Shown piece after piece: positions 6,702-11,616 of a DNA stretch of 64,000 nt. The translations under genes were made by a program, and so were the position numbers. The notes under the pieces were generated by a model, which saw only the letters and a program-made list of their open reading frames with translations, did no database searches and had not been told where the DNA came from. Positions within the stretch are counted from its first letter, which is position 1. Each line of letters opens with the position of its first letter. The stretch is from an uncultured Candidatus Saccharibacteria bacterium. GTDB taxonomy: Bacteria; Patescibacteriota; UBA1384; DTJR01. The stretch is taken from assembly GCA_964580065.1 (NCBI GenBank), contig CAZOJE010000003.1, positions 18,441-82,440 on the forward strand, in the 5' to 3' direction.

Positions 6702-7127
6702 ATGGCGAAAAAATTTCATTTGCTTTTAGACAGCCCTGAAGAGATGCTTTTCGACCAAGAAGTCGAACAAATTAGCTTACCCACCGCGCAAGGTGAGATC
6801 GGGATTATGGCCGATCACACTCCTTTGATTGCCCTTGTTTCTTCGGGTGTCATCACAGTAAACGACGGCCAGAAAGAGTATTTTCTTTCTAGCGGCGGCG
6901 GCTTCATTGAATTCAAAAATAATACCGCTAATATTTTTGTGCAAAGCGCGGAATTTGCCGACTCGATTGACGCCGAGCGCGCTCTCGCCGCCGCCGAAAA
7001 AGCCAAAAAAGAAATGGCGGAAAATGTTGACGAAATTAGTTTGGCCGACGCCACCGCCGTCCTAGAAAGAAATATCGCCCGACTAAAAACAATCGAAAAA
7101 AGAAAACGCCGTTCGGGGACGCGCTAA
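6702..7127 (+). CDS. atpC: F0F1 ATP synthase subunit epsilon
   Basis: 141 aa in the operon position, with a beta-sandwich N-terminus and a helical C-terminus. Confidence 0.8.
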   Translation: MAKKFHLLLDSPEEMLFDQEVEQISLPTAQGEIGIMADHTPLIALVSSGVITVNDGQKEYFLSSGGGFIEFKNNTANIFVQSAEFADSIDAERALAAAEKAKKEMAENVDEISLADATAVLERNIARLKTIEKRKRRSGTR

Positions 7128-7170
7128 TTTTTTTATCTAATCAGTCTTAAGCGTTCTAAATTATCAGCAA

Positions 7171-7647
7171 TTATTTTGCTGGTGGTATTGCCAGATCCGA
7201 AATCGTTGAAGCAATTTTTTTAGGACGAGCCACATTGGTAAAATCGACTTCACGATTCGAGCCGGAGGCCTTTATGATAACCGTGCCAAAACCAAAGATT
7301 GCACCCCATAGGGTTTGGTCAACGTCAACGGCTTGAATATCGTCCAGAGAAATTTCCTCTTCGCGGGAGCCGAAAATTCCCACCCTATTTTCAACACGCC
7401 TGTTAGTAAGGTGATAAATTGTGTAGTACCAGTTGAAAAAGATCACTACTCCAACAAAAACAATCACCAAAACAATAATTAAATAGACCCACCACGTTCT
7501 TAATCCGGCGGTGTATAAAATATAATCGAAAGCAACAAGGAGAACTATGAGGGGCAAAAGCTGGCCGGCAAGAATCAAAAAACTTGGCCTAATCTCAAGA
7601 ATTGTTTCCTCTCCCGGTATATATTTTTTCATTTTTTGATCTGCCAT
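7171..7647 (-). CDS. Membrane protein with bacterial PH domain (bPH_2/YdbS-like)
   Basis: 158 aa with two N-terminal TM helices, then Y.LTNRRV...GIFG......I....I.....QT pattern typical of bPH_2 domains. Confidence 0.5.
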   Translation of the reverse strand: MADQKMKKYIPGEETILEIRPSFLILAGQLLPLIVLLVAFDYILYTAGLRTWWVYLIIVLVIVFVGVVIFFNWYYTIYHLTNRRVENRVGIFGSREEEISLDDIQAVDVDQTLWGAIFGFGTVIIKASGSNREVDFTNVARPKKIASTISDLAIPPAK

Positions 7648-7785
7648 TTTGTCTCTCCTCTAAAACTAAATATTATATTAACTATAAACAGGACCTTCTT
7701 CAGAAGTTTATTTTACCAAAAAGTCCTACAAAAGCACACAAATATTGGTTAATTGAGTTTTTTTGGGTTGGTTTTGGGGTTGATA

Positions 7786-8439
7786 CTATTTAGTGAATCT
7801 AAATGTATTTGCGATTTGATTGAATGTCTCAACTATTAAAGCCCCAGGAGAAGCCGGAGTCAATTGGATTGTGTATTCAATCCCATCATTAACAGCAATA
7901 TAAACTAAATCGTTAATATACCCGCCTACATCGGAAGTTTCATTAGTTCTATCAATCAAGTAAAAGTCAACACCATTTATTGTTTTTTTAGTTTTATTGG
8001 CGTAGCTACTTACAATCTGATTGAGAATTTGATCAGTTGGGTTTGTACTAATAAAAATTACTGCCTCACCTGATTTTTTCGAATAACCAGGATCATAGGT
8101 AAATTGATAGTTAGCAAGACGAAAAGCAACCCTTTGAGAATCAACGGCATTTTCATCATTATTAAATGGCATCCAACCAGAAGAAGGATATTTGATTGAA
8201 TACGAGTATTTATCGTTAGCGTAGGTTTTCCAATTAACTGTCGCATCGGCTGTGGCTGAAGTATTTATGGAGACAGTTGAAGTTGCCGTAGCTGACTCTA
8301 GGGCAGTGGTTTCGCTGGTAGCTGAATTTTTTCCTGCCATAAAACCAATCGCCAAAAATATTACTGCTGTTACCACGATAAAAATTGTTGTCATGACAAT
8401 TTTATGGCCGTCAATCTGCTTGGTTTTTCCTTCTTCCAT
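7786..8439 (-). CDS. Membrane-anchored secreted protein, paralog family member 1 (divergent N-terminus)
   Basis: 217 aa: N-terminal TM anchor, S/T/A-rich linker, C-terminal domain with WKTY.NDKYSYSIKYP motif shared with the 8544 and 9949 genes, ending F.FTK. Confidence 0.55.
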   Translation of the reverse strand: MEEGKTKQIDGHKIVMTTIFIVVTAVIFLAIGFMAGKNSATSETTALESATATSTVSINTSATADATVNWKTYANDKYSYSIKYPSSGWMPFNNDENAVDSQRVAFRLANYQFTYDPGYSKKSGEAVIFISTNPTDQILNQIVSSYANKTKKTINGVDFYLIDRTNETSDVGGYINDLVYIAVNDGIEYTIQLTPASPGALIVETFNQIANTFRFTK

Positions 8440-8543
8440 TATTTGTCTCCTTTTATAATATATTTTTTACCTGGTTAACTCAACGAAAGATATTACCCTT
8501 GTTCACAAAACTTTGCCAGACTAACTCTTTGGCGGCAAATTCT

Positions 8544-9176
8544 TTATTGGGTGAATTTAAATGTAGTTAGGATTTTATCGAATTCCGTCAATGGTTGAGT
8601 GTCAGAATCTTCCATGTAGAAGAAATACAGATACTCATTTGAGCCCACTGTCAAATTTCCCACTGCCAAAGTCCTACTATCTTTAGAGTTCTCGTCAGAT
8701 GAAATTGTTTTTGTGGATTTGATCTTTCCTCCAGTATAGTCCATAGCGTATTGAACGTCAGGGAAAAACGGACCAAAGCCGTCAGGGTTTACATAAAGAT
8801 CCATAGTTGAAGTATTGCTTTTTATGGATAACTTCCTCTCTGGGACCGAGGTAGTATTCTTTTCGAGTTCGTCAGTTGCTGTATAGGTGTTCGGATACTT
8901 AAAACTAAACCCATACTTGTCGTTAGTATATGTCTTCCAGCTTGCTGTTTCATCGGCTGCCGTAGCGCTTGTTGATGTGGTAGCCGACGCTGTTGTTTGC
9001 AAACTGGTCACTTTACTCTGAAGATCGGTGATTTGGGCATTGAGATCATTTTTCTCTTTTGTGGCCTTGTTATTAACGTAGACGTAAGCACCACCACCAA
9101 AAACAACTGCTGTAAGTAAGATTAGCAAAGTAATAGTTACACCAGACATGCCTTTTTTAGCTATTTGCTCGTCCAT
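8544..9176 (-). CDS. Membrane-anchored secreted protein, paralog family member 2
   Basis: 210 aa. N-terminal ~65 aa (TM helix + NDLNAQITDLQSKVTSLQ coiled coil) is nearly identical to the 9230 and 9949 genes. C-terminal domain is variable. Confidence 0.6.
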   Translation of the reverse strand: MDEQIAKKGMSGVTITLLILLTAVVFGGGAYVYVNNKATKEKNDLNAQITDLQSKVTSLQTTASATTSTSATAADETASWKTYTNDKYGFSFKYPNTYTATDELEKNTTSVPERKLSIKSNTSTMDLYVNPDGFGPFFPDVQYAMDYTGGKIKSTKTISSDENSKDSRTLAVGNLTVGSNEYLYFFYMEDSDTQPLTEFDKILTTFKFTQ

Positions 9177-9229
9177 GAAATCTCCTTCAATTTTTATTTG
9201 ATAAATGTTTTTTTATTTTTTCCAACTCT

Positions 9230-9925
9230 TTAAAGGAATTTAAAGCTTGACAATACGTGTTGAAAAACACTGTAATTTATATCACTAGACATTCCTAAGT
9301 AAGAAATTTCATACGTCGCAGTGCCATTAGTTACAAGCACCCCAACCCCAGGGTCTGTGCCTGCCCAGACTGCTTCTAGAGCTGACTGTCCAGCAACAGT
9401 AATATTTTTTTCGGATAAATGCGGTTGCGGTGTAAACTTTTTTAATTGGTCATACCATTGCGAGGCTGTCTCGTCCGAGGGTTTGTTTGCTAATACTTGA
9501 ACCATAATCATATTCGTTGTGTCAGTCTTTGGCGGTGAGAAATCAACAAAAACGCCTGCGTCAGTCGGATCGTTACATAATATGCAGCTCGAAATTTCCC
9601 AGTCGTGGGGATATTCACTGCTCCAGCCGCTTTTACTCGTAAATAAAGACCATTGCGAGCTGTCGCTTGATAGAGATTTCGCCGAGTTAGCGGACGCCGA
9701 ACTCGTTGCACTAGCAGATGGACTAATTGACGATCTTGTCGTTTGCAAACTGGTCACTTGGCTTTGCAGCTCGGTGATTTGGGCATTTAGGTCGTTCTTT
9801 TCTTTCGTGGCTTTGTTATTTACATAAGCATAAGCACCACCACCAAAAACAACTGCTGTGAGTAAGATTAGTAAAGTAACAGTTACACCAGACATGCCAT
9901 TCTTGGTTTGCATTTGCTCATCCAT
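9230..9925 (-). CDS. Membrane-anchored secreted protein, paralog family member 3
   Basis: 231 aa with the same conserved N-terminal module and a different C-terminal domain containing CxxC (SSCILCNDP). Confidence 0.6.
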   Translation of the reverse strand: MDEQMQTKNGMSGVTVTLLILLTAVVFGGGAYAYVNNKATKEKNDLNAQITELQSQVTSLQTTRSSISPSASATSSASANSAKSLSSDSSQWSLFTSKSGWSSEYPHDWEISSCILCNDPTDAGVFVDFSPPKTDTTNMIMVQVLANKPSDETASQWYDQLKKFTPQPHLSEKNITVAGQSALEAVWAGTDPGVGVLVTNGTATYEISYLGMSSDINYSVFQHVLSSFKFL

Positions 9926-9948
9926 AGTGCTTTCCTTTCTAATTTATT

Positions 9949-10590
9949 TTACTTGGTTAATTGGAAGGTGGAGAGGATTTGGGTTAAGACAGCATCAACA
10001 TCCGCCTCATTGATATCAATATTATAATACGCCCTTACACTAACGATGTGATTACTATCTTTGTATTCGGCTTCTGTATATCGATCTTTTTCGTAACTCC
10101 CAATACCTTTTAAATTGGTAATTTTCCAACTAAGTCCATTATATGAGGGGGTTTTTTCTGAAATTATATTATAGCCCTCTGGTCCGCCAGCGTTATCTGT
10201 TATCTCAAAAACTTCTATTGAAACATTTTTATATTTTTCAGACGCAGAAGTTAGTTTCACACCGTCTAGACTGGGTGTATTTATGCTATTTTCCAACCAT
10301 CCGTTGGGGTATTTGAAACTAAAATTATATTTAGAATTGATATACTTTGTCAATTCAGCCGTCGCGCTTGTCGTGGCACTTGTTGATGTGGTAGCCGACG
10401 CTGTCGTTTGCAGACTGGCCACTTGGCTTTGTAGATCGGTGATTTGCGCATTCAGGCCGTTCTTTTCTTTCGTGGCTTTGTTATTTACATAAGCATAAGC
10501 ACCACCACCAAAAACAACTGCCGCTAGTAAGATCAGCAAAGTGATCATTGCACCAGACATGCCTTTTTTGGTTTGCATTTGCTCATCCAT
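9949..10590 (-). CDS. Membrane-anchored secreted protein, paralog family member 4
   Basis: 213 aa with the conserved N-terminal module and a C-terminal KYNFSFKYPNGW motif domain. Confidence 0.6.
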   Translation of the reverse strand: MDEQMQTKKGMSGAMITLLILLAAVVFGGGAYAYVNNKATKEKNGLNAQITDLQSQVASLQTTASATTSTSATTSATAELTKYINSKYNFSFKYPNGWLENSINTPSLDGVKLTSASEKYKNVSIEVFEITDNAGGPEGYNIISEKTPSYNGLSWKITNLKGIGSYEKDRYTEAEYKDSNHIVSVRAYYNIDINEADVDAVLTQILSTFQLTK

Positions 10591-10699
10591 AGTGCTTTCC
10601 TTTCTAATTTATTTATCAGTTTATTATAAATATTATCTTACAGCGCCAAGGAAAACGCAACTTTTTATATTACAACCTCGAGAAGTTTGTGGAATTTTG

Positions 10700-10910
10700 A
10701 CCTGACTCGAACCTTCCCGTTTAGGCGCAGATAAAGAGAAAGTGCGCAAATAGGTTAGGGTTGGTGCCGGGGCTTTGGCGGGGTGGAACCGCCAAATTCC
10801 TGACTCGAACCTAATATTGAGTTTGTGTAAAAATAATAAGTACGCGATAAATTTTGAATTTGGTGCCGGGGCTTTGGCGGGGTGGAACCGCCAAATTCCT
10901 GACTCGAACC
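10700..10910. repeat. Direct repeats resembling a tRNA 3' end (two full ~50-bp X units at 10762-10811 and 10861-10910, plus a partial unit at ~10700, each followed by a ~45-bp related Y unit)
   Basis: Reverse complement of X ends ...GGTTCGAGTC...CCCCGGCACCA, the same T-arm and acceptor/CCA end as the adjacent tRNA-Leu, but with a ~25-nt insertion. Seen directly in the sequence. Confidence 0.5.
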
Positions 10911-10957
10911 TCCGCGTTAGGTGCAGATAAAGGGAAAGTGTGCAAACGTTTTAGTGA

Positions 10958-11044
10958 TGGTGCCGGGGAGAGGACTCGAACCTCCACACTTTTGCAAGCG
11001 CCAGCTCCTAAAGCTGGTGCGTCTACCAATTTCGCCACCCCGGC
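10958..11044 (-). tRNA. tRNA-Leu (anticodon TAG), class II with long variable arm, CCA encoded
   Basis: Reverse complement reads GCCGGGGTGGCGAAATTGGTAGACGCACCAGCTTTAGGAGCTGG...GGAGGTTCGAGTCCTCTCCCCGGCACCA. 7-bp acceptor stem, anticodon loop TTTAGGA. Confidence 0.8.
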
Positions 11045-11145
11045 ATATCAAACATTTGCTATCTCGGAGAGATTATAGAACAAAATCCCCCTTCTGCCAA
11101 GAGAAAAGACTATTTTTCAAAAAATTTTGTACTATACTAATATAT

Positions 11146-11616
11146 ATGAAAAAAGACGAGAATAATTACGACGTTTCAAAAATTCTCGCCGTGGTAATTT
11201 TGGCTATCGTTGGTATTTCTGGCTGTTTTTTTGTTCTTTGGCAAATGTCAAGCCAAAAATCTGCCGCTAACGCCAAAAACACTCAAGCCGTTGCCACCCA
11301 AAAAGAAATTGATGAACTCAATCAAAAAATCGACGAACTCAACGCTTCACTGCAAGAGGTGCAAAACAGCAATTCCGACGATAGCTCTGGCACAGTCAAG
11401 GGTGATTCAACCTCGTCCGTCACCGACAAAATAAACATTAATACGGCCTCTTTGAGCGATCTCGATAAATTAGACGGAATCGGCCCCACCTACGCCCAGA
11501 GAATTATTGATTATCGTTCATCTAACAACGGATTTAAATCAATTGAGGAAATTAAAAACGTTAAAGGCATTGGCGATAAAACTTTTGAAAAACTCAAAAA
11601 TCAAATCACTATCTAG
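11146..11616 (+). CDS. comEA: Competence protein ComEA (helix-hairpin-helix DNA-binding)
   Basis: Internal Met start (MKKDENNY...). N-terminal TM helix. C-terminal ININTASLSDLDKLDGIGPTYAQRIIDYR...GIGDKTFEKLK tandem HhH motifs. Confidence 0.7.
   Translation: MKKDENNYDVSKILAVVILAIVGISGCFFVLWQMSSQKSAANAKNTQAVATQKEIDELNQKIDELNASLQEVQNSNSDDSSGTVKGDSTSSVTDKININTASLSDLDKLDGIGPTYAQRIIDYRSSNNGFKSIEEIKNVKGIGDKTFEKLKNQITI

What the first reader, a model, noticed from the sequence alone, without database searches (positions are those of the whole stretch)
7786..10590. Tandem array of four paralogous membrane-anchored proteins with near-identical N-terminal modules and divergent C-terminal domains
Three consecutive minus-strand genes share an almost identical ~65-aa N-terminus (TM helix + NDLNAQITDLQSQVTSLQ coiled coil), and their 5' ~190 nt are near-identical DNA repeats. 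They then diverge into different C-terminal domains. Two C-terminal domains, plus that of the fourth more divergent gene, share a WKTY.NDKY.FS.KYP motif. One carries a distinct Cys-containing domain. Constant anchor plus variable head is the pattern of diversified surface or secreted effector/receptor families. The array lies immediately beside tRNA-Leu, on the side of the tRNA 3' end, which suggests an island-borne variable locus.
Basis: seen in the sequence. Interest (0 to 1): 0.5.

Follow-up and report, generated by a model that had tools for sequence, protein, structure and literature searches.

The report
Variable PsbP-like surface protein array
Four neighbouring genes in an uncultivated Berkelbacteria (CPR) genome encode proteins with a shared membrane-helix-plus-coiled-coil front end and very different PsbP-fold heads, and strains of the same species carry different heads at this site, so it looks like a recombining surface-protein locus rather than a foreign island.

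Summary
Four minus-strand genes (7786-10590) lie 367 nt from the 3' end of tRNA-Leu(UAG). Three share an N-terminal module that is 85-89% identical in protein and 77-91% identical in DNA over 213 nt.

The C-terminal parts are not different domains. All four match Pfam PsbP_2, and models of g3 (the CxxC copy) and g4 have the PsbP/Mog1 fold. The heads are only 18-32% identical.

The locus is not a tRNA-borne island. The order recG-comEA-tRNA-Leu-[N-module gene]...bPH_2-atpC-atpD is conserved across Berkelbacteria. There is no integrase and no tRNA repeat at the far end of the array.

The content is hypervariable within one species, whose flanks are 96.5-99% identical. The window has heads D-C-B-A. 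Two other haplotypes have a single gene, with head B or head E. The N-modules are mosaics of one another.

N-module synonymous divergence (pS 0.25-0.57) is well below that of the heads (saturated). This indicates purifying selection plus gene conversion. Head A is 77% identical to a head in a distant lineage whose recG is 47% identical.

Function is inferred only: variable binding heads on a conserved stalk. This is a new variant of a known kind, of moderate interest.

The parts
9949..10590 (-). g4. Its parts are the N-module (aa 1-62, nt 10405-10590), a Thr/Ser-rich linker and PsbP-fold head 'D' (nt 9952-10356). It is the first gene after tRNA-Leu.
   Evidence: ORF. N-module HMM E 6e-33. Pfam PsbP_2 25.4 bits and PsbP 20.3 bits. 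The AF2 model has a helix at 13-60, disorder at 62-75 and a beta-rich domain at 80-207. Foldseek top hits are CyanoP/PsbP, E 3e-7, prob 1.0. No close relative of the head exists in 5.8e9 proteins.
9230..9925 (-). g3. Its parts are the N-module (nt 9740-9925), a linker and PsbP-fold head 'C' carrying a private CxxC (nt 9233-9664). It lies 23 nt downstream of g4 and is probably co-transcribed with it.
8544..9176 (-). g2. Its parts are the N-module (nt 8994-9176), a linker and PsbP-fold head 'B' (nt 8547-8951).
   Evidence: ORF. N-module HMM E 6e-32. Pfam PsbP_2 24.3 bits. Head B is 99% identical (dS 0.012) to the single gene of strain L005/L006. phmmer with head B finds 1321 representative proteins at E<=1e-3.
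7786..8439 (-). g1. It has a different N-terminus (a hydrophobic helix but no coiled coil), a linker and PsbP-fold head 'A' (nt 7789-8232). It has its own promoter-like site and ribosome-binding site.
   Evidence: ORF. It is not hit by the N-module HMM, but the C-domain HMM gives E 1e-28. Its N-terminus resembles P0045 (34% identity). Head A is 77% identical to P0014 of L001, with dS 0.93 against saturated flanks. Head GC is 0.335 against a genome value of 0.42.
10402..10614 (-). Copy of the 213-nt conserved 5' repeat (g4): ribosome-binding-site region plus N-module coding sequence.
   Evidence: the repeat finder family D1, 91% to the reference. Alignments.
9737..9949 (-). Copy of the 213-nt conserved 5' repeat (g3).
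   Evidence: the repeat finder family D1, reference copy.
8991..9203 (-). Copy of the 213-nt conserved 5' repeat (g2).
   Evidence: the repeat finder family D1, 77%. Most differences from g3 and g4 are synonymous: dS 0.78-1.06, dN 0.05-0.07.
10958..11044 (-). tRNA-Leu(UAG). It is co-oriented with the array and is the conserved upstream neighbour of the first N-module gene across Berkelbacteria.
   Evidence: ARAGORN. Rfam tRNA 57.6 bits. The same tRNA lies upstream in L001, L003, L005, L009, L010, L019 and L020. A promoter-like site (TTGGCA-17-TATAAT) lies at 11100-11072.
10690..10957 (-). tRNA-3'-derived repeat region between the tRNA and g4. It holds two exact 52-nt units (10761-10812 and 10860-10911). 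Each unit has T-loop-like GGTTCGAGTC, a hairpin GGCGG-TTCCACC-CCGCC and the acceptor-like end CCCCGGCACCA. There is also a truncated unit (10700-10714) and a duplicated tRNA flank (10721-10761, similar to 10917-10957). The number of full units is 2 here, 3 in L005 and 0 in L032.
   Evidence: There is no Rfam family and no match in viral contigs.
8440..8543 (-). g2-g1 spacer. It holds the conserved 3'-flank motif AAGAATTTGCCGCCAAAGA, also found after N-module genes in L005 and L003. It also holds a relic of a paralogue 3' end (around 8462-8490, which reads ..S F V E L T R stop) and a promoter-like site for g1 (8483-8455).
7740..7785 (-). Sequence downstream of g1 with a second relic of the conserved paralogue 3' end (CTCAATTAACCA at 7746-7756). 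It is shared with the single-gene haplotypes L005 and L032 and marks the 3' recombination boundary.

Best explanation
This is a resident, strain-variable paralogue array of a Berkelbacteria-specific family of extracytoplasmic proteins.

Each protein has a short charged tail and a hydrophobic helix ending in the invariant FGGGxYAY motif. A membrane-proximal coiled coil of about 3 heptads follows (core residues L46, I50, L53, V57, L60). Then comes a disordered Thr/Ser-rich linker and a globular head of about 135 aa with the PsbP/Mog1 fold.

Shown:
- All four heads are one fold family but are very divergent (18-32% identity).
- The N-module is conserved across the whole clade.
- Within this genome the N-module is kept similar by purifying selection (dN/dS about 0.07-0.2). 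Gene conversion also contributes: N-module pS is 0.25-0.57 against saturated heads, there are identical tracts of 64-89 nt, and the alleles are mosaics of one another.
- Head content differs between strains of one species. The junctions lie in the N-module/linker on one side and at the conserved 3' end and flank on the other.
- Head A is shared with a distant lineage at far higher similarity than most core genes (all but atpD).

Inferred:
- The conserved 5' module serves two roles. It targets and displays the head on a common, probably oligomeric, stalk at the cell surface. It also provides the homology that lets heads be duplicated, deleted and exchanged by ordinary homologous recombination.
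- The heads are binding modules for different partners, such as host-cell or envelope ligands, phage or toxins, and are under diversifying selection.
For: Family and fold:
- Pfam PsbP_2 hits all four proteins.
- A C-domain HMM hits all four at E 1e-21 to 1e-29 and hits nothing else in the 64 kb.
- The g4 model gives Foldseek prob 1.0 to CyanoP/PsbP.

Architecture: both models show a long helix at 13-60/63, a disordered linker and then the domain.

Clade-wide N-module: there are 42 homologues with 59-91% identical modules and varied heads, including non-PsbP heads.

Resident locus:
- The synteny recG-comEA-tRNA-Leu-N-module gene...bPH_2-atpC-atpD holds in L001/L002, L005 and L019. It holds in part (recG-comEA-tRNA-Leu, without bPH_2/atp in the DNA held) in L003 and L020. 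recG is 43-50% identical in these loci, except L005 (same species, 98%).

Intraspecies variation (flanks 96.5-99.2% identical):
- The window has four genes.
- L005/L006 have one gene. It combines the g4 upstream region, a mosaic N-module, head B and the g1 downstream region.
- L032/L033 have one gene with head E.

Concerted evolution and mosaicism.

Relic 3' ends of lost paralogues: 4 hits of the motif against 0.36 expected.

Head A exchange: 77% aa identity, dS 0.93 and low GC in both genomes. Shared core genes are 38-84% identical, and the four flank genes tested are synonymously saturated.
Against: - There are no expression, localisation or binding data, so function is inferred from fold and evolutionary pattern only.
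- Topology and processing are untested. The h-region plus GGG plus A-Y-A resembles a cleavable signal peptide, so the proteins may be secreted rather than anchored.
- Three of the four Pfam scores are below the gathering cut-off.
- The models have moderate confidence (pLDDT 74-76).
- dS for the N-module rests on about 41 synonymous sites.
- Only three haplotypes were found, all from short-read metagenome assemblies. Such assemblies can be chimeric at repeats. However, the head-B and head-E haplotypes were each recovered from at least two samples, and part of the window arrangement was also seen independently.
- Heads C and D have no close relatives, so their origin is unknown.
- Variation could be neutral birth-and-death rather than diversifying selection.
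Confidence: 0.6

Rival explanations
1. One reading: this is a tRNA-integrated genomic island. The array would be cargo of a mobile element that inserted at the 3' end of tRNA-Leu.
For: - The array adjoins the tRNA 3' end.
- tRNA-3'-like fragments lie next to the tRNA, and a 21-nt att-like duplicate exists in L019.
- Array content varies between strains.
- In sister lineages a large serine recombinase element sits between a tRNA and the N-module gene.
- N-module genes follow six different tRNA species.
- The g1 and g4 heads are AT-rich.
Against: - An N-module gene in this exact position is conserved across lineages with 43-50% recG identity.
- No recombinase lies in or near the array, or anywhere in the 64 kb.
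- No tRNA-derived repeat lies on the distal side. The fragments bracket only about 270 nt of non-coding DNA.
- Strain differences map to homologous junctions inside the genes, not to att sites.
- The recombinase element in relatives is bounded by its own inverted repeats and excludes the N-module gene.
Confidence: 0.08
2. This is an array of immunity-type proteins. The PsbP-fold heads would neutralise different envelope-targeting toxins, as Tsi3, TplEi and Tli4 do, and the array would be an accumulated set of 'orphan' immunities.
For: - The genes form a tandem array of divergent paralogues.
- The repertoire is strain-specific, and one head appears to have been transferred laterally.
Against: - No toxin or effector gene is adjacent. 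The neighbours are tRNA, comEA, bPH_2 and atp genes.
- There is no sequence-level match to immunity families or to defence libraries.
- The same fold is equally shared by PsbP, LpqN, DcrB, Apa and Mog1, so the fold does not discriminate.
- One copy is a conserved core-locus gene in every relative.
Confidence: 0.12
3. These are ordinary envelope-biogenesis or substrate-handling paralogues, like LpqN, DcrB or CyanoP. Copy-number and sequence variation would be neutral birth-and-death with no role in variable interactions.
For: - The fold family includes assembly and lipid-handling factors.
- The family is very large and common: 1321 representative clusters, many of them multi-domain.
- The genomic context is housekeeping.
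- Frameshifted or truncated copies and relic 3' ends indicate turnover.
Against: - There is complete head replacement between strains whose flanks are 97-99% identical.
- Head A is retained at 77% identity across lineages with 47% recG identity.
- The stalk is strongly conserved while the heads have diverged almost to saturation.
- These patterns fit selection on head identity better than drift does.
Confidence: 0.2
4. This is programmed variation. Either a diversity-generating retroelement is at work, or a silent-cassette/inversion switch in which only one copy is expressed.
For: - CPR genomes often carry DGRs (own knowledge).
- Relatives have long inverted repeats around the gene, a neighbouring serine recombinase and an (ACT)7 tract.
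Against: - In the window the repeated DNA is the conserved 5' module, not a template for the variable part.
- Substitutions between copies are of all types, not adenine-specific.
- The window region has no inverted repeat longer than 17 nt, no microsatellite and no recombinase.
- All four genes are intact, each with its own ribosome-binding site.
- In all six relatives with inverted repeats, the gene is co-oriented with the tRNA.
Confidence: 0.03

Closest known systems
Pfam PF18933 (PsbP_2) / PsbP-Mog1 superfamily extracytoplasmic proteins (cyanobacterial PsbP 2xb3, BT_1490 3hlz, LpqN 6e5d, DcrB 6e8a, Apa, MTC28)
   Different: The anchor is not a lipobox. It is a Berkelbacteria-specific hydrophobic helix plus FGGGxYAY motif plus short coiled coil. 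This module is conserved at 59-91% identity across the clade and was found in only 8 GTDB representative genomes. The genes form a strain-variable tandem array. No function-defining residues are shared with any characterised member.
Mycoplasma variable surface lipoprotein families (Vlp, Vsp, Vsa)
   Same: Both are tandem paralogues with a highly conserved 5' end (upstream region plus export/anchor segment) and divergent mature parts. In both, recombination among copies creates chimeras and changes copy number. Both occur in a reduced-genome, host-associated bacterium. This comparison rests on my own knowledge of that literature.
   Different: There is no lipobox cysteine. There are no internal tandem-repeat bodies. 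The window has no poly-A or microsatellite promoter switch and no site-specific inversion sites. All copies appear expressible. The heads are folded PsbP-like domains, not repetitive coils.
T6SS periplasmic immunity proteins with the PsbP-like fold (Tsi3, TplEi/Tli, PA0094)
   Different: There is no adjacent effector and no sequence-level relationship. The organism has a single membrane. One copy is a conserved syntenic gene.
tRNA-linked genomic islands / integrative elements
   Same: The array adjoins a tRNA 3' end. tRNA-3'-derived repeats lie nearby. Content varies between strains.
   Different: There is no integrase and no distal att repeat. The position of the first gene is conserved across deep lineages. 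Strain differences arise at homologous intragenic junctions.

Membership tests
Pfam PsbP_2 (PF18933) / PsbP-Mog1 fold | Whole-protein HMM score at or above the gathering cut-off (27 bits) | tested here: inconclusive
   g3 scores 29.7 bits and passes. g1 (24.2), g2 (24.3) and g4 (25.4) are just below, with E 2e-5 to 4e-5.
Pfam PsbP_2 (PF18933) / PsbP-Mog1 fold | Antiparallel beta-sheet flanked by helices (PsbP/Mog1 alpha-beta-alpha sandwich) | tested here: met
Pfam PsbP_2 (PF18933) / PsbP-Mog1 fold | Extracytoplasmic location through an N-terminal signal or anchor | not testable with these tools
   A hydrophobic helix at aa 13-35 followed by a polar coiled coil is predicted. No topology or cleavage predictor or experiment was available.
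tRNA-integrated genomic island | Integrase or recombinase gene at the tRNA-proximal end | tested here: not met
   The interval contains only the four paralogues. tblastn with the relatives' serine recombinase finds nothing in the 64 kb.
tRNA-integrated genomic island | Direct repeat of the tRNA 3' end at the distal boundary of the inserted DNA | tested here: not met
   TGGTGCCGGGG and CTGACTCGAACCT occur only at 10702-10968, within 270 nt of the tRNA. Neither occurs near 7650-7790.
tRNA-integrated genomic island | Absent from the same site in related genomes (empty site) | tested here: not met
   Every relative with this synteny has at least one N-module gene directly after tRNA-Leu. Only the number and identity of heads vary.
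tRNA-integrated genomic island | Atypical base composition | tested here: inconclusive
   Head GC is 0.335 for g1 and 0.347 for g4, against 0.414 +/- 0.031 for large ORFs. g2 and g3 are typical.
Mycoplasma-type variable lipoprotein arrays | Conserved 5' region plus divergent mature region in tandem paralogues | tested here: met
Mycoplasma-type variable lipoprotein arrays | Lipoprotein signal with lipobox cysteine | tested here: not met
   There is no Cys in aa 1-70 of any of the four proteins.
Mycoplasma-type variable lipoprotein arrays | Simple-sequence or inversion switch that controls expression | tested here: not met
   No microsatellite lies in or between the genes. No inverted repeat is longer than 17 nt.
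Diversity-generating retroelement target | Template/variable repeat pair with adenine-specific differences, plus a reverse transcriptase | tested here: not met
   The only repeats are the conserved 5' modules. Differences between copies are of all base types. No RT-like gene lies between atpC and recG. The rest of the window was not scanned for RT.
T6SS-type immunity protein | Encoded next to its cognate effector | tested here: not met
   The neighbours are bPH_2, tRNA-Leu and comEA. Nothing significant was found in PADLOC or NCBIfam.
SipW-dependent signal peptide proteins (TIGR04088) | HMM score at or above the cut-off (19 bits) | tested here: not met
   None of the four window proteins gives a hit. 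The strain homologue P0004 scores 16.7 bits, below 19. The small residues at -1 and -3 are not conserved across the family (YVY, YLY and WYY variants).

The most novel reading that the evidence does not exclude
The N-module would be a dedicated 'handle' for a cassette-exchange system of surface variation in Berkelbacteria.

In this reading, a clade-wide conserved 5' module and a conserved 3' end and flank let folded heads be swapped by recombination. Most heads are PsbP-like and some have other folds. Swapping would occur among paralogues, among strains and even between genera. The result would be strain-specific surface repertoires that govern host attachment or phage and toxin susceptibility in an episymbiotic CPR lineage.

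In sister lineages the same cassette is bracketed by 60-144-nt inverted repeats, next to a large serine recombinase that is itself flanked by inverted repeats and lies beside a tRNA. That could be the machinery that mobilises or inverts the cassette.
Probability: 0.18. Interest if true: 0.6.

Novelty: new variant of a known kind. Interest (0 to 1): 0.38.

Why it matters
CPR/Patescibacteria are thought to live attached to other cells, yet almost nothing is known about the surface molecules that set their partner or phage specificity.

This locus gives a concrete, easily tracked candidate. It has a conserved stalk that can serve as a PCR or read-mapping handle. Its heads differ completely between strains that are otherwise 97-99% identical.

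It is also a clean natural example of two processes acting on one gene family in a minimal genome. One is concerted evolution of one gene segment. The other is head exchange, including apparent transfer of one head between distant lineages.

The fold (PsbP-like) and the general pattern (constant leader, variable body) are both well known, and no function has been shown. The significance is therefore moderate.

Tried and rejected
1. Low-complexity explanation of the N-terminal similarity. Rejected: DNA is 77-91% identical over 213 nt, profile E-values are about 1e-33, and the polar coiled-coil part is conserved.
2. Different C-terminal domains. Rejected by Pfam, profile and fold searches.
3. 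SipW-type signal or RiPP annotation (the JGI name for P0004). It scores below the cut-off, and the window proteins give no hit.
4. Lpp-like lipoprotein (the JGI name for P0007 and P0054). There are only weak coiled-coil hits (E 0.004-0.26) and no lipobox.
5. Defence or phage origin. PADLOC and PHROGs give only insignificant hits. No N-module is found in 2.9 M viral contigs. The pseudo-tRNA unit is absent from viral contigs.
6. Known RNA family in the tRNA-g4 spacer. Rfam finds only the tRNA.
7. Exact-sequence look-up of g4 to find the source contig returned nothing. The organism name of the source contig (130,053 nt, NCBI) could not be retrieved.
8. Literature searches (PsbP-like + CPR; PF18933; PsbP + Patescibacteria; Berkelbacteria surface paralogues) found nothing relevant.
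9. A search for more head-A relatives found only P0014.
10. Inversion or shufflon in the window. There are no inverted repeats and no recombinase.


Full report
**1. Observation**

The window holds four consecutive minus-strand ORFs:
- g1, 7786-8439, 217 aa
- g2, 8544-9176, 210 aa
- g3, 9230-9925, 231 aa
- g4, 9949-10590, 213 aa

The repeat finder reports a three-copy, 213-nt direct repeat covering the 5' ends of g2, g3 and g4. The copies are at 8991-9203 (77%), 9737-9949 (reference) and 10402-10614 (91%). A nucleotide alignment shows 77-100% identity per 50-nt bin. The conserved stretch runs from about 25 nt upstream of the start codon to about nt 190-230 of the coding sequence. Identity then falls abruptly to about 45%.

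The whole 23-nt g4-g3 spacer equals the last 23 nt upstream of g4, including the ribosome-binding site.

The first 62 residues are 85-89% identical between g2, g3 and g4. They comprise a charged tail, a hydrophobic helix and a polar heptad segment, so this is not low-complexity resemblance. g1 has a different N-terminus: a hydrophobic helix with no coiled coil.

tRNA-Leu(UAG) lies at 10958-11044 on the same strand, with its 3' end facing g4 across 367 nt. An independent Logan assembly (SRR9878565) is 100% identical to window 7119-9120.

**2. What the proteins are**

All four match Pfam PsbP_2 (PF18933). g3 scores 29.7 bits and passes the cut-off of 27. g1, g2 and g4 score 24.2-25.4 bits. A profile of the C-terminal region of homologues hits all four at E 1e-21 to 1e-29 and hits no other ORF in the 64 kb.

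AlphaFold models built with a 48-sequence alignment give the same layout for g3 (pLDDT 73.7) and g4 (75.9). There is one long helix at residues 13-60/63, a disordered Thr/Ser-rich linker, and then a beta-sheet domain with flanking helices.

- Foldseek places the g4 head with CyanoP/PsbP (E 3e-7, prob 1.0).

The 'divergent C-terminal domains', including the 'Cys-containing domain', are therefore one fold family that has diverged to 18-32% identity. The CxxC of g3 (C114, C117) sits in a variable loop and is found in no homologue.

The head family is very large. phmmer with head B finds 1321 representative clusters at E<=1e-3. Many are TM-linker-domain proteins of about 200 aa, and many have 2-5 tandem domains.

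Nothing passes the cut-off in NCBIfam. Only weak Lpp-like coiled-coil and PsbP hits appear, and the window proteins give no SipW-signal hit. PADLOC and PHROGs give nothing significant. The weak Rz-spanin-like hits reflect the 'TM plus coiled coil' architecture only.

**3. The N-module is a clade-specific unit**

Searching 5.8e9 proteins with g4 or g3 returns about 50 proteins each. Most align only over the N-terminal 45-50%, at about 55% identity. Those with organism names are Candidatus Berkelbacteria.

Forty-two of them carry the module M-E-E-x-T-x-K-S-G-M-S-...-FGGGAYAYVNNKA-x-KEK-x-DLNAQITELQSQV. Sixteen columns are invariant. The hydrophobic positions L46, I50, L53, V57 and L60 are spaced 4-3-4-3, which is the pattern of a short coiled coil (read from the sequence).

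The module is fused to many different PsbP-like heads and to some non-PsbP heads, for example a Cys-rich 161-aa protein in L003. Only 8 loci were found among 185,579 GTDB species representatives and 17 in JGI metagenome contigs. None was found in viral contigs.

Is the hydrophobic segment an uncleaved anchor or a cleaved signal peptide (h-region, GGG, A-Y-A)? This could not be tested. The conserved feature is the aromatic Y-x-Y pattern rather than small residues at -1 and -3; variants include YVY, YLY and WYY. I take that, together with the continuous helix in the models, as mild support for an anchor.

**4. Genomic context: resident locus, not an island**

The gene order recG - comEA - tRNA-Leu(UAG) - N-module gene(s) - ... 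- bPH_2 - atpC - atpD is found in the window and in L001/L002, L005/L006 and L019. It is found in part (recG - comEA - tRNA-Leu, without bPH_2/atp in the DNA held) in L003 and L020. Apart from the same-species L005/L006 (recG 98% identical), these lineages have recG only 43-50% identical to the window's.

- There is no integrase or recombinase in the interval or anywhere in the window.
- tRNA-3'-like sequences (TGGTGCCGGGG, CTGACTCGAACCT) occur only within 270 nt of the tRNA and never at the distal border.
- Composition is only mildly atypical. The g1 and g4 heads have GC 0.335-0.347, against 0.414 +/- 0.031 for large ORFs.

The 'island-borne' reading is therefore not supported. What remains true is that the tRNA-Leu 3' side is recombinationally active (see section 7).

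**5. Strain-level variation and recombination junctions**

Three haplotypes of the same species were recovered. Their flanks are 96.5-99.2% identical in DNA, and flank dS against L005 is 0.07-0.25.

(a) The window has heads D-C-B-A. This is partly confirmed by SRR9878565.

(b) L005 (JGI 3300010344) and L006 (ERZ795049), plus two similar contigs, have a single gene.
- Its upstream region and first 55 nt equal g4.
- The next 48 nt equal g2 exactly, and the next 56 nt equal g3 exactly.
- The linker is unique.
- The head and the 20 nt after the stop are g2 (99.5%, dS 0.012).
- The sequence then joins the DNA downstream of g1.

(c) L032 (JGI 3300041002) and L033 (SRR28640815) have a single gene.
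- The first 90 nt are g3-like.
- The linker is identical to that of haplotype (b).
- The head ('E') is absent from the window.
- The 3' end and downstream sequence are g1-type.

Junctions are scattered through the coiled-coil and linker region and at the WKTYT motif on the 5' side. On the 3' side they lie at the conserved ...TF(K/Q)(F/L)TK-stop end. This fits homologous recombination rather than a site-specific mechanism.

Short relics of paralogue 3' ends remain in the g2-g1 spacer (which reads S-F-V-E-L-T-R-stop) and after g1. The motif occurs 4 times in the window against 0.36 expected.

Heads C and D have no relative above about 39% identity in the database.

**6. Evolutionary signal (Nei-Gojobori)**

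| Comparison | dS (or pS) | dN | Note |
|---|---|---|---|
| N-module, g3-g4 | 0.31 | 0.06 | |
| N-module, g2-g3 | 0.78 | 0.05 | |
| N-module, g2-g4 | 1.06 | 0.07 | |
| Heads, between paralogues | pS 0.76-0.86 (saturated) | 0.76-1.28 | 18-32% aa identity |

Two conclusions follow.
- The module is under purifying selection (dN/dS about 0.07-0.2).
- It shares more recent ancestry than the heads. This means gene conversion or module exchange, and it is consistent with identical tracts of 64-89 nt among otherwise diverged copies. The estimate rests on only about 41 synonymous sites.

Head A (g1) is 77% identical in protein and 78.7% identical in DNA to the head of P0014 in L001. There the head is fused to a canonical N-module and sits first after the tRNA. 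The similarity starts in the linker and stops at the stop codon. Its dS is 0.93. The four flank genes tested are saturated (pS 0.72-0.79). The shared core proteins are 38-84% identical (median about 56%, recG 47%). Head A is AT-rich in both genomes. Head A has therefore either been exchanged between lineages or is under unusual constraint, and it has re-assorted with two different N-terminal modules.

**7. Mechanistic proposal**

Shown: the architecture, the fold, the clade-wide conserved module, the intraspecies head replacement, and the mosaicism and concerted evolution.

Inferred:
- The proteins are N-in/C-out surface proteins. Their common helix and coiled coil target them and probably oligomerise them. 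The Thr/Ser linker spaces the head from the membrane, and the head binds a partner.
- The conserved 5' module, together with the conserved 3' end and flank, supplies the homology for duplication, deletion and replacement of heads, both within the array and with imported DNA.
- The strain-specific repertoire suggests selection on what the heads bind: a host-cell or envelope ligand, phage, or toxins.

I give the package as a whole 0.6. The structural and evolutionary part I put at about 0.85, and the functional inference at about 0.35.

Rivals:
- Neutral birth-and-death of envelope-biogenesis paralogues (0.2).
- An array of immunity-type proteins, based on fold similarity to Tsi3/TplEi but with no adjacent effector (0.12).
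- A tRNA-integrated island (0.08).
- Programmed variation by DGR, inversion or silent cassettes (0.03). The window has no inverted repeat above 17 nt, no microsatellite and no recombinase, the substitutions are not A-specific, and all copies are intact.

**8. Comparison with known systems and novelty**

By membership these are PsbP_2/PsbP-Mog1 fold proteins. The fold criterion is met, and the HMM cut-off is met for one of the four.

By behaviour the closest analogue is the Mycoplasma Vlp/Vsp type of variable surface-protein array, with a conserved 5' end and variable body. These proteins lack the lipobox, the repeat bodies and the switch elements that define those families.

I found no description of the Berkelbacteria N-module or of this locus in the searchable literature.

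I rate it a new variant of a known kind. Interest is 0.38.

**9. Side observations**

These are listed under 'noticed in passing':
- the copy-number-variable tRNA-3'-derived repeats next to tRNA-Leu;
- the inverted-repeat-bracketed N-module cassettes and the inverted-repeat-bracketed large serine recombinase in sister lineages;
- the recurrent placement of N-module genes directly downstream of six different tRNA species;
- an (ACT)7 tract in L003.

Noticed in passing
window 10690-10957 (also L005 7297-7650 and L032 1-90): Between tRNA-Leu and g4 lie tRNA-3'-derived repeats. There are two exact 52-nt units (10761-10812 and 10860-10911). Each has T-loop-like GGTTCGAGTC, an 8-bp hairpin with a T-arm-like loop (GGCGG-TTCCACC-CCGCC) and an acceptor-like CCCCGGCACCA. 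There is also a truncated unit and a diverged copy of the tRNA's downstream flank. Full-unit number is 2 in the window, 3 in strain L005 and 0 in strain L032. One L005 copy has a compensatory G-C to A-T change in the hairpin. There is no Rfam family and no viral match. The region folds with z = -2.4. The repeats look like att-type scars or a tRNA-derived minisatellite.
   Followed up: partly
L003 7257-9850; L009 6240-8824; L007 6187-8873; L026 757-1850; L016 6809-7903: In sister Berkelbacteria lineages the N-module gene, with its upstream region, is bracketed by long inverted repeats of 37-144 nt at 86-100% identity. Immediately upstream, next to a tRNA, lies a 550-aa large serine recombinase. 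It is bracketed by its own 84-139-nt inverted repeats, and the two repeat sets overlap. This could be an invertible or mobile cassette, or REP/MITE-like hairpin elements. In all six loci the gene is co-oriented with the tRNA, so inversion was not seen. None of these elements is present in the window.
   Followed up: partly
L001, L003, L005, L007, L009, L010, L012/L029, L016, L019, L020, L023, L026: N-module genes lie directly downstream of a tRNA gene (80 nt to about 2.7 kb), on the same strand, in 11-12 of about 14 distinct lineages. Six tRNA species are involved: Leu-UAG, Leu-CAG, Leu-UAA, Glu, Arg and Ala. This is far more than tRNA density would predict. Possible causes are read-through from tRNA promoters or tRNA-targeted mobility.
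   Followed up: partly
L019 2416-2555: A 21-nt exact duplicate of the tRNA-Leu 3' end (GAGTCCTCTCCCCGGCACCA) lies 115 nt downstream of the tRNA. It brackets a GC-rich insert, like an att scar.
   Followed up: no
L003 about 9020-9045: An (ACT)7 microsatellite lies in the promoter-like region upstream of the first N-module gene. L001 and L020 have (ACT)2-3 at the same place. This is a possible slipped-strand expression switch in that lineage.
   Followed up: no
window 8515-8543; L005 8402-8425; L003 9633-9660: A conserved motif, TAAAGAATTTG(C/T)CGCCAAAGA(A/G)(C/T)TA(A/G)TCT, lies immediately after the stop codon of N-module genes in lineages with only 43% recG identity. It resembles the arms of the pseudo-tRNA hairpin (GAATTTGGCGG...CCGCCAAAG). 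Its function is unknown.
   Followed up: no
window 10353-10324 (minus strand): A perfect sigma-70 consensus (TTGACA-18-TATAAT, 12/12) lies inside the g4 coding sequence, at the start of head D. This is probably a chance match in AT-rich sequence.
   Followed up: no
L020 6998-7700: The N-module gene after tRNA-Leu is frameshifted. It gives a 119-aa ORF, and the head continues in another frame to ...MLQTFSFIK. This is either a pseudogene or a sequencing error, and it is consistent with gene turnover.
   Followed up: no
window 10921-11616 (+): The listed 231-aa ORF for the ComEA-like HHH protein starts with GTG inside the tRNA-Leu gene. The real start is probably the ATG at 11149, which gives 155 aa as in L005.
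   Followed up: partly
L001 10571-13870 and 14018-14617: In a distant relative, the interval between the first N-module gene and bPH_2 holds a 1099-aa S8 peptidase with FG-GAP repeats. It also holds a second N-module protein with a non-PsbP-like head, a DUF456 protein and small ORFs. The interval is therefore a general hotspot for surface and secreted genes.
   Followed up: no
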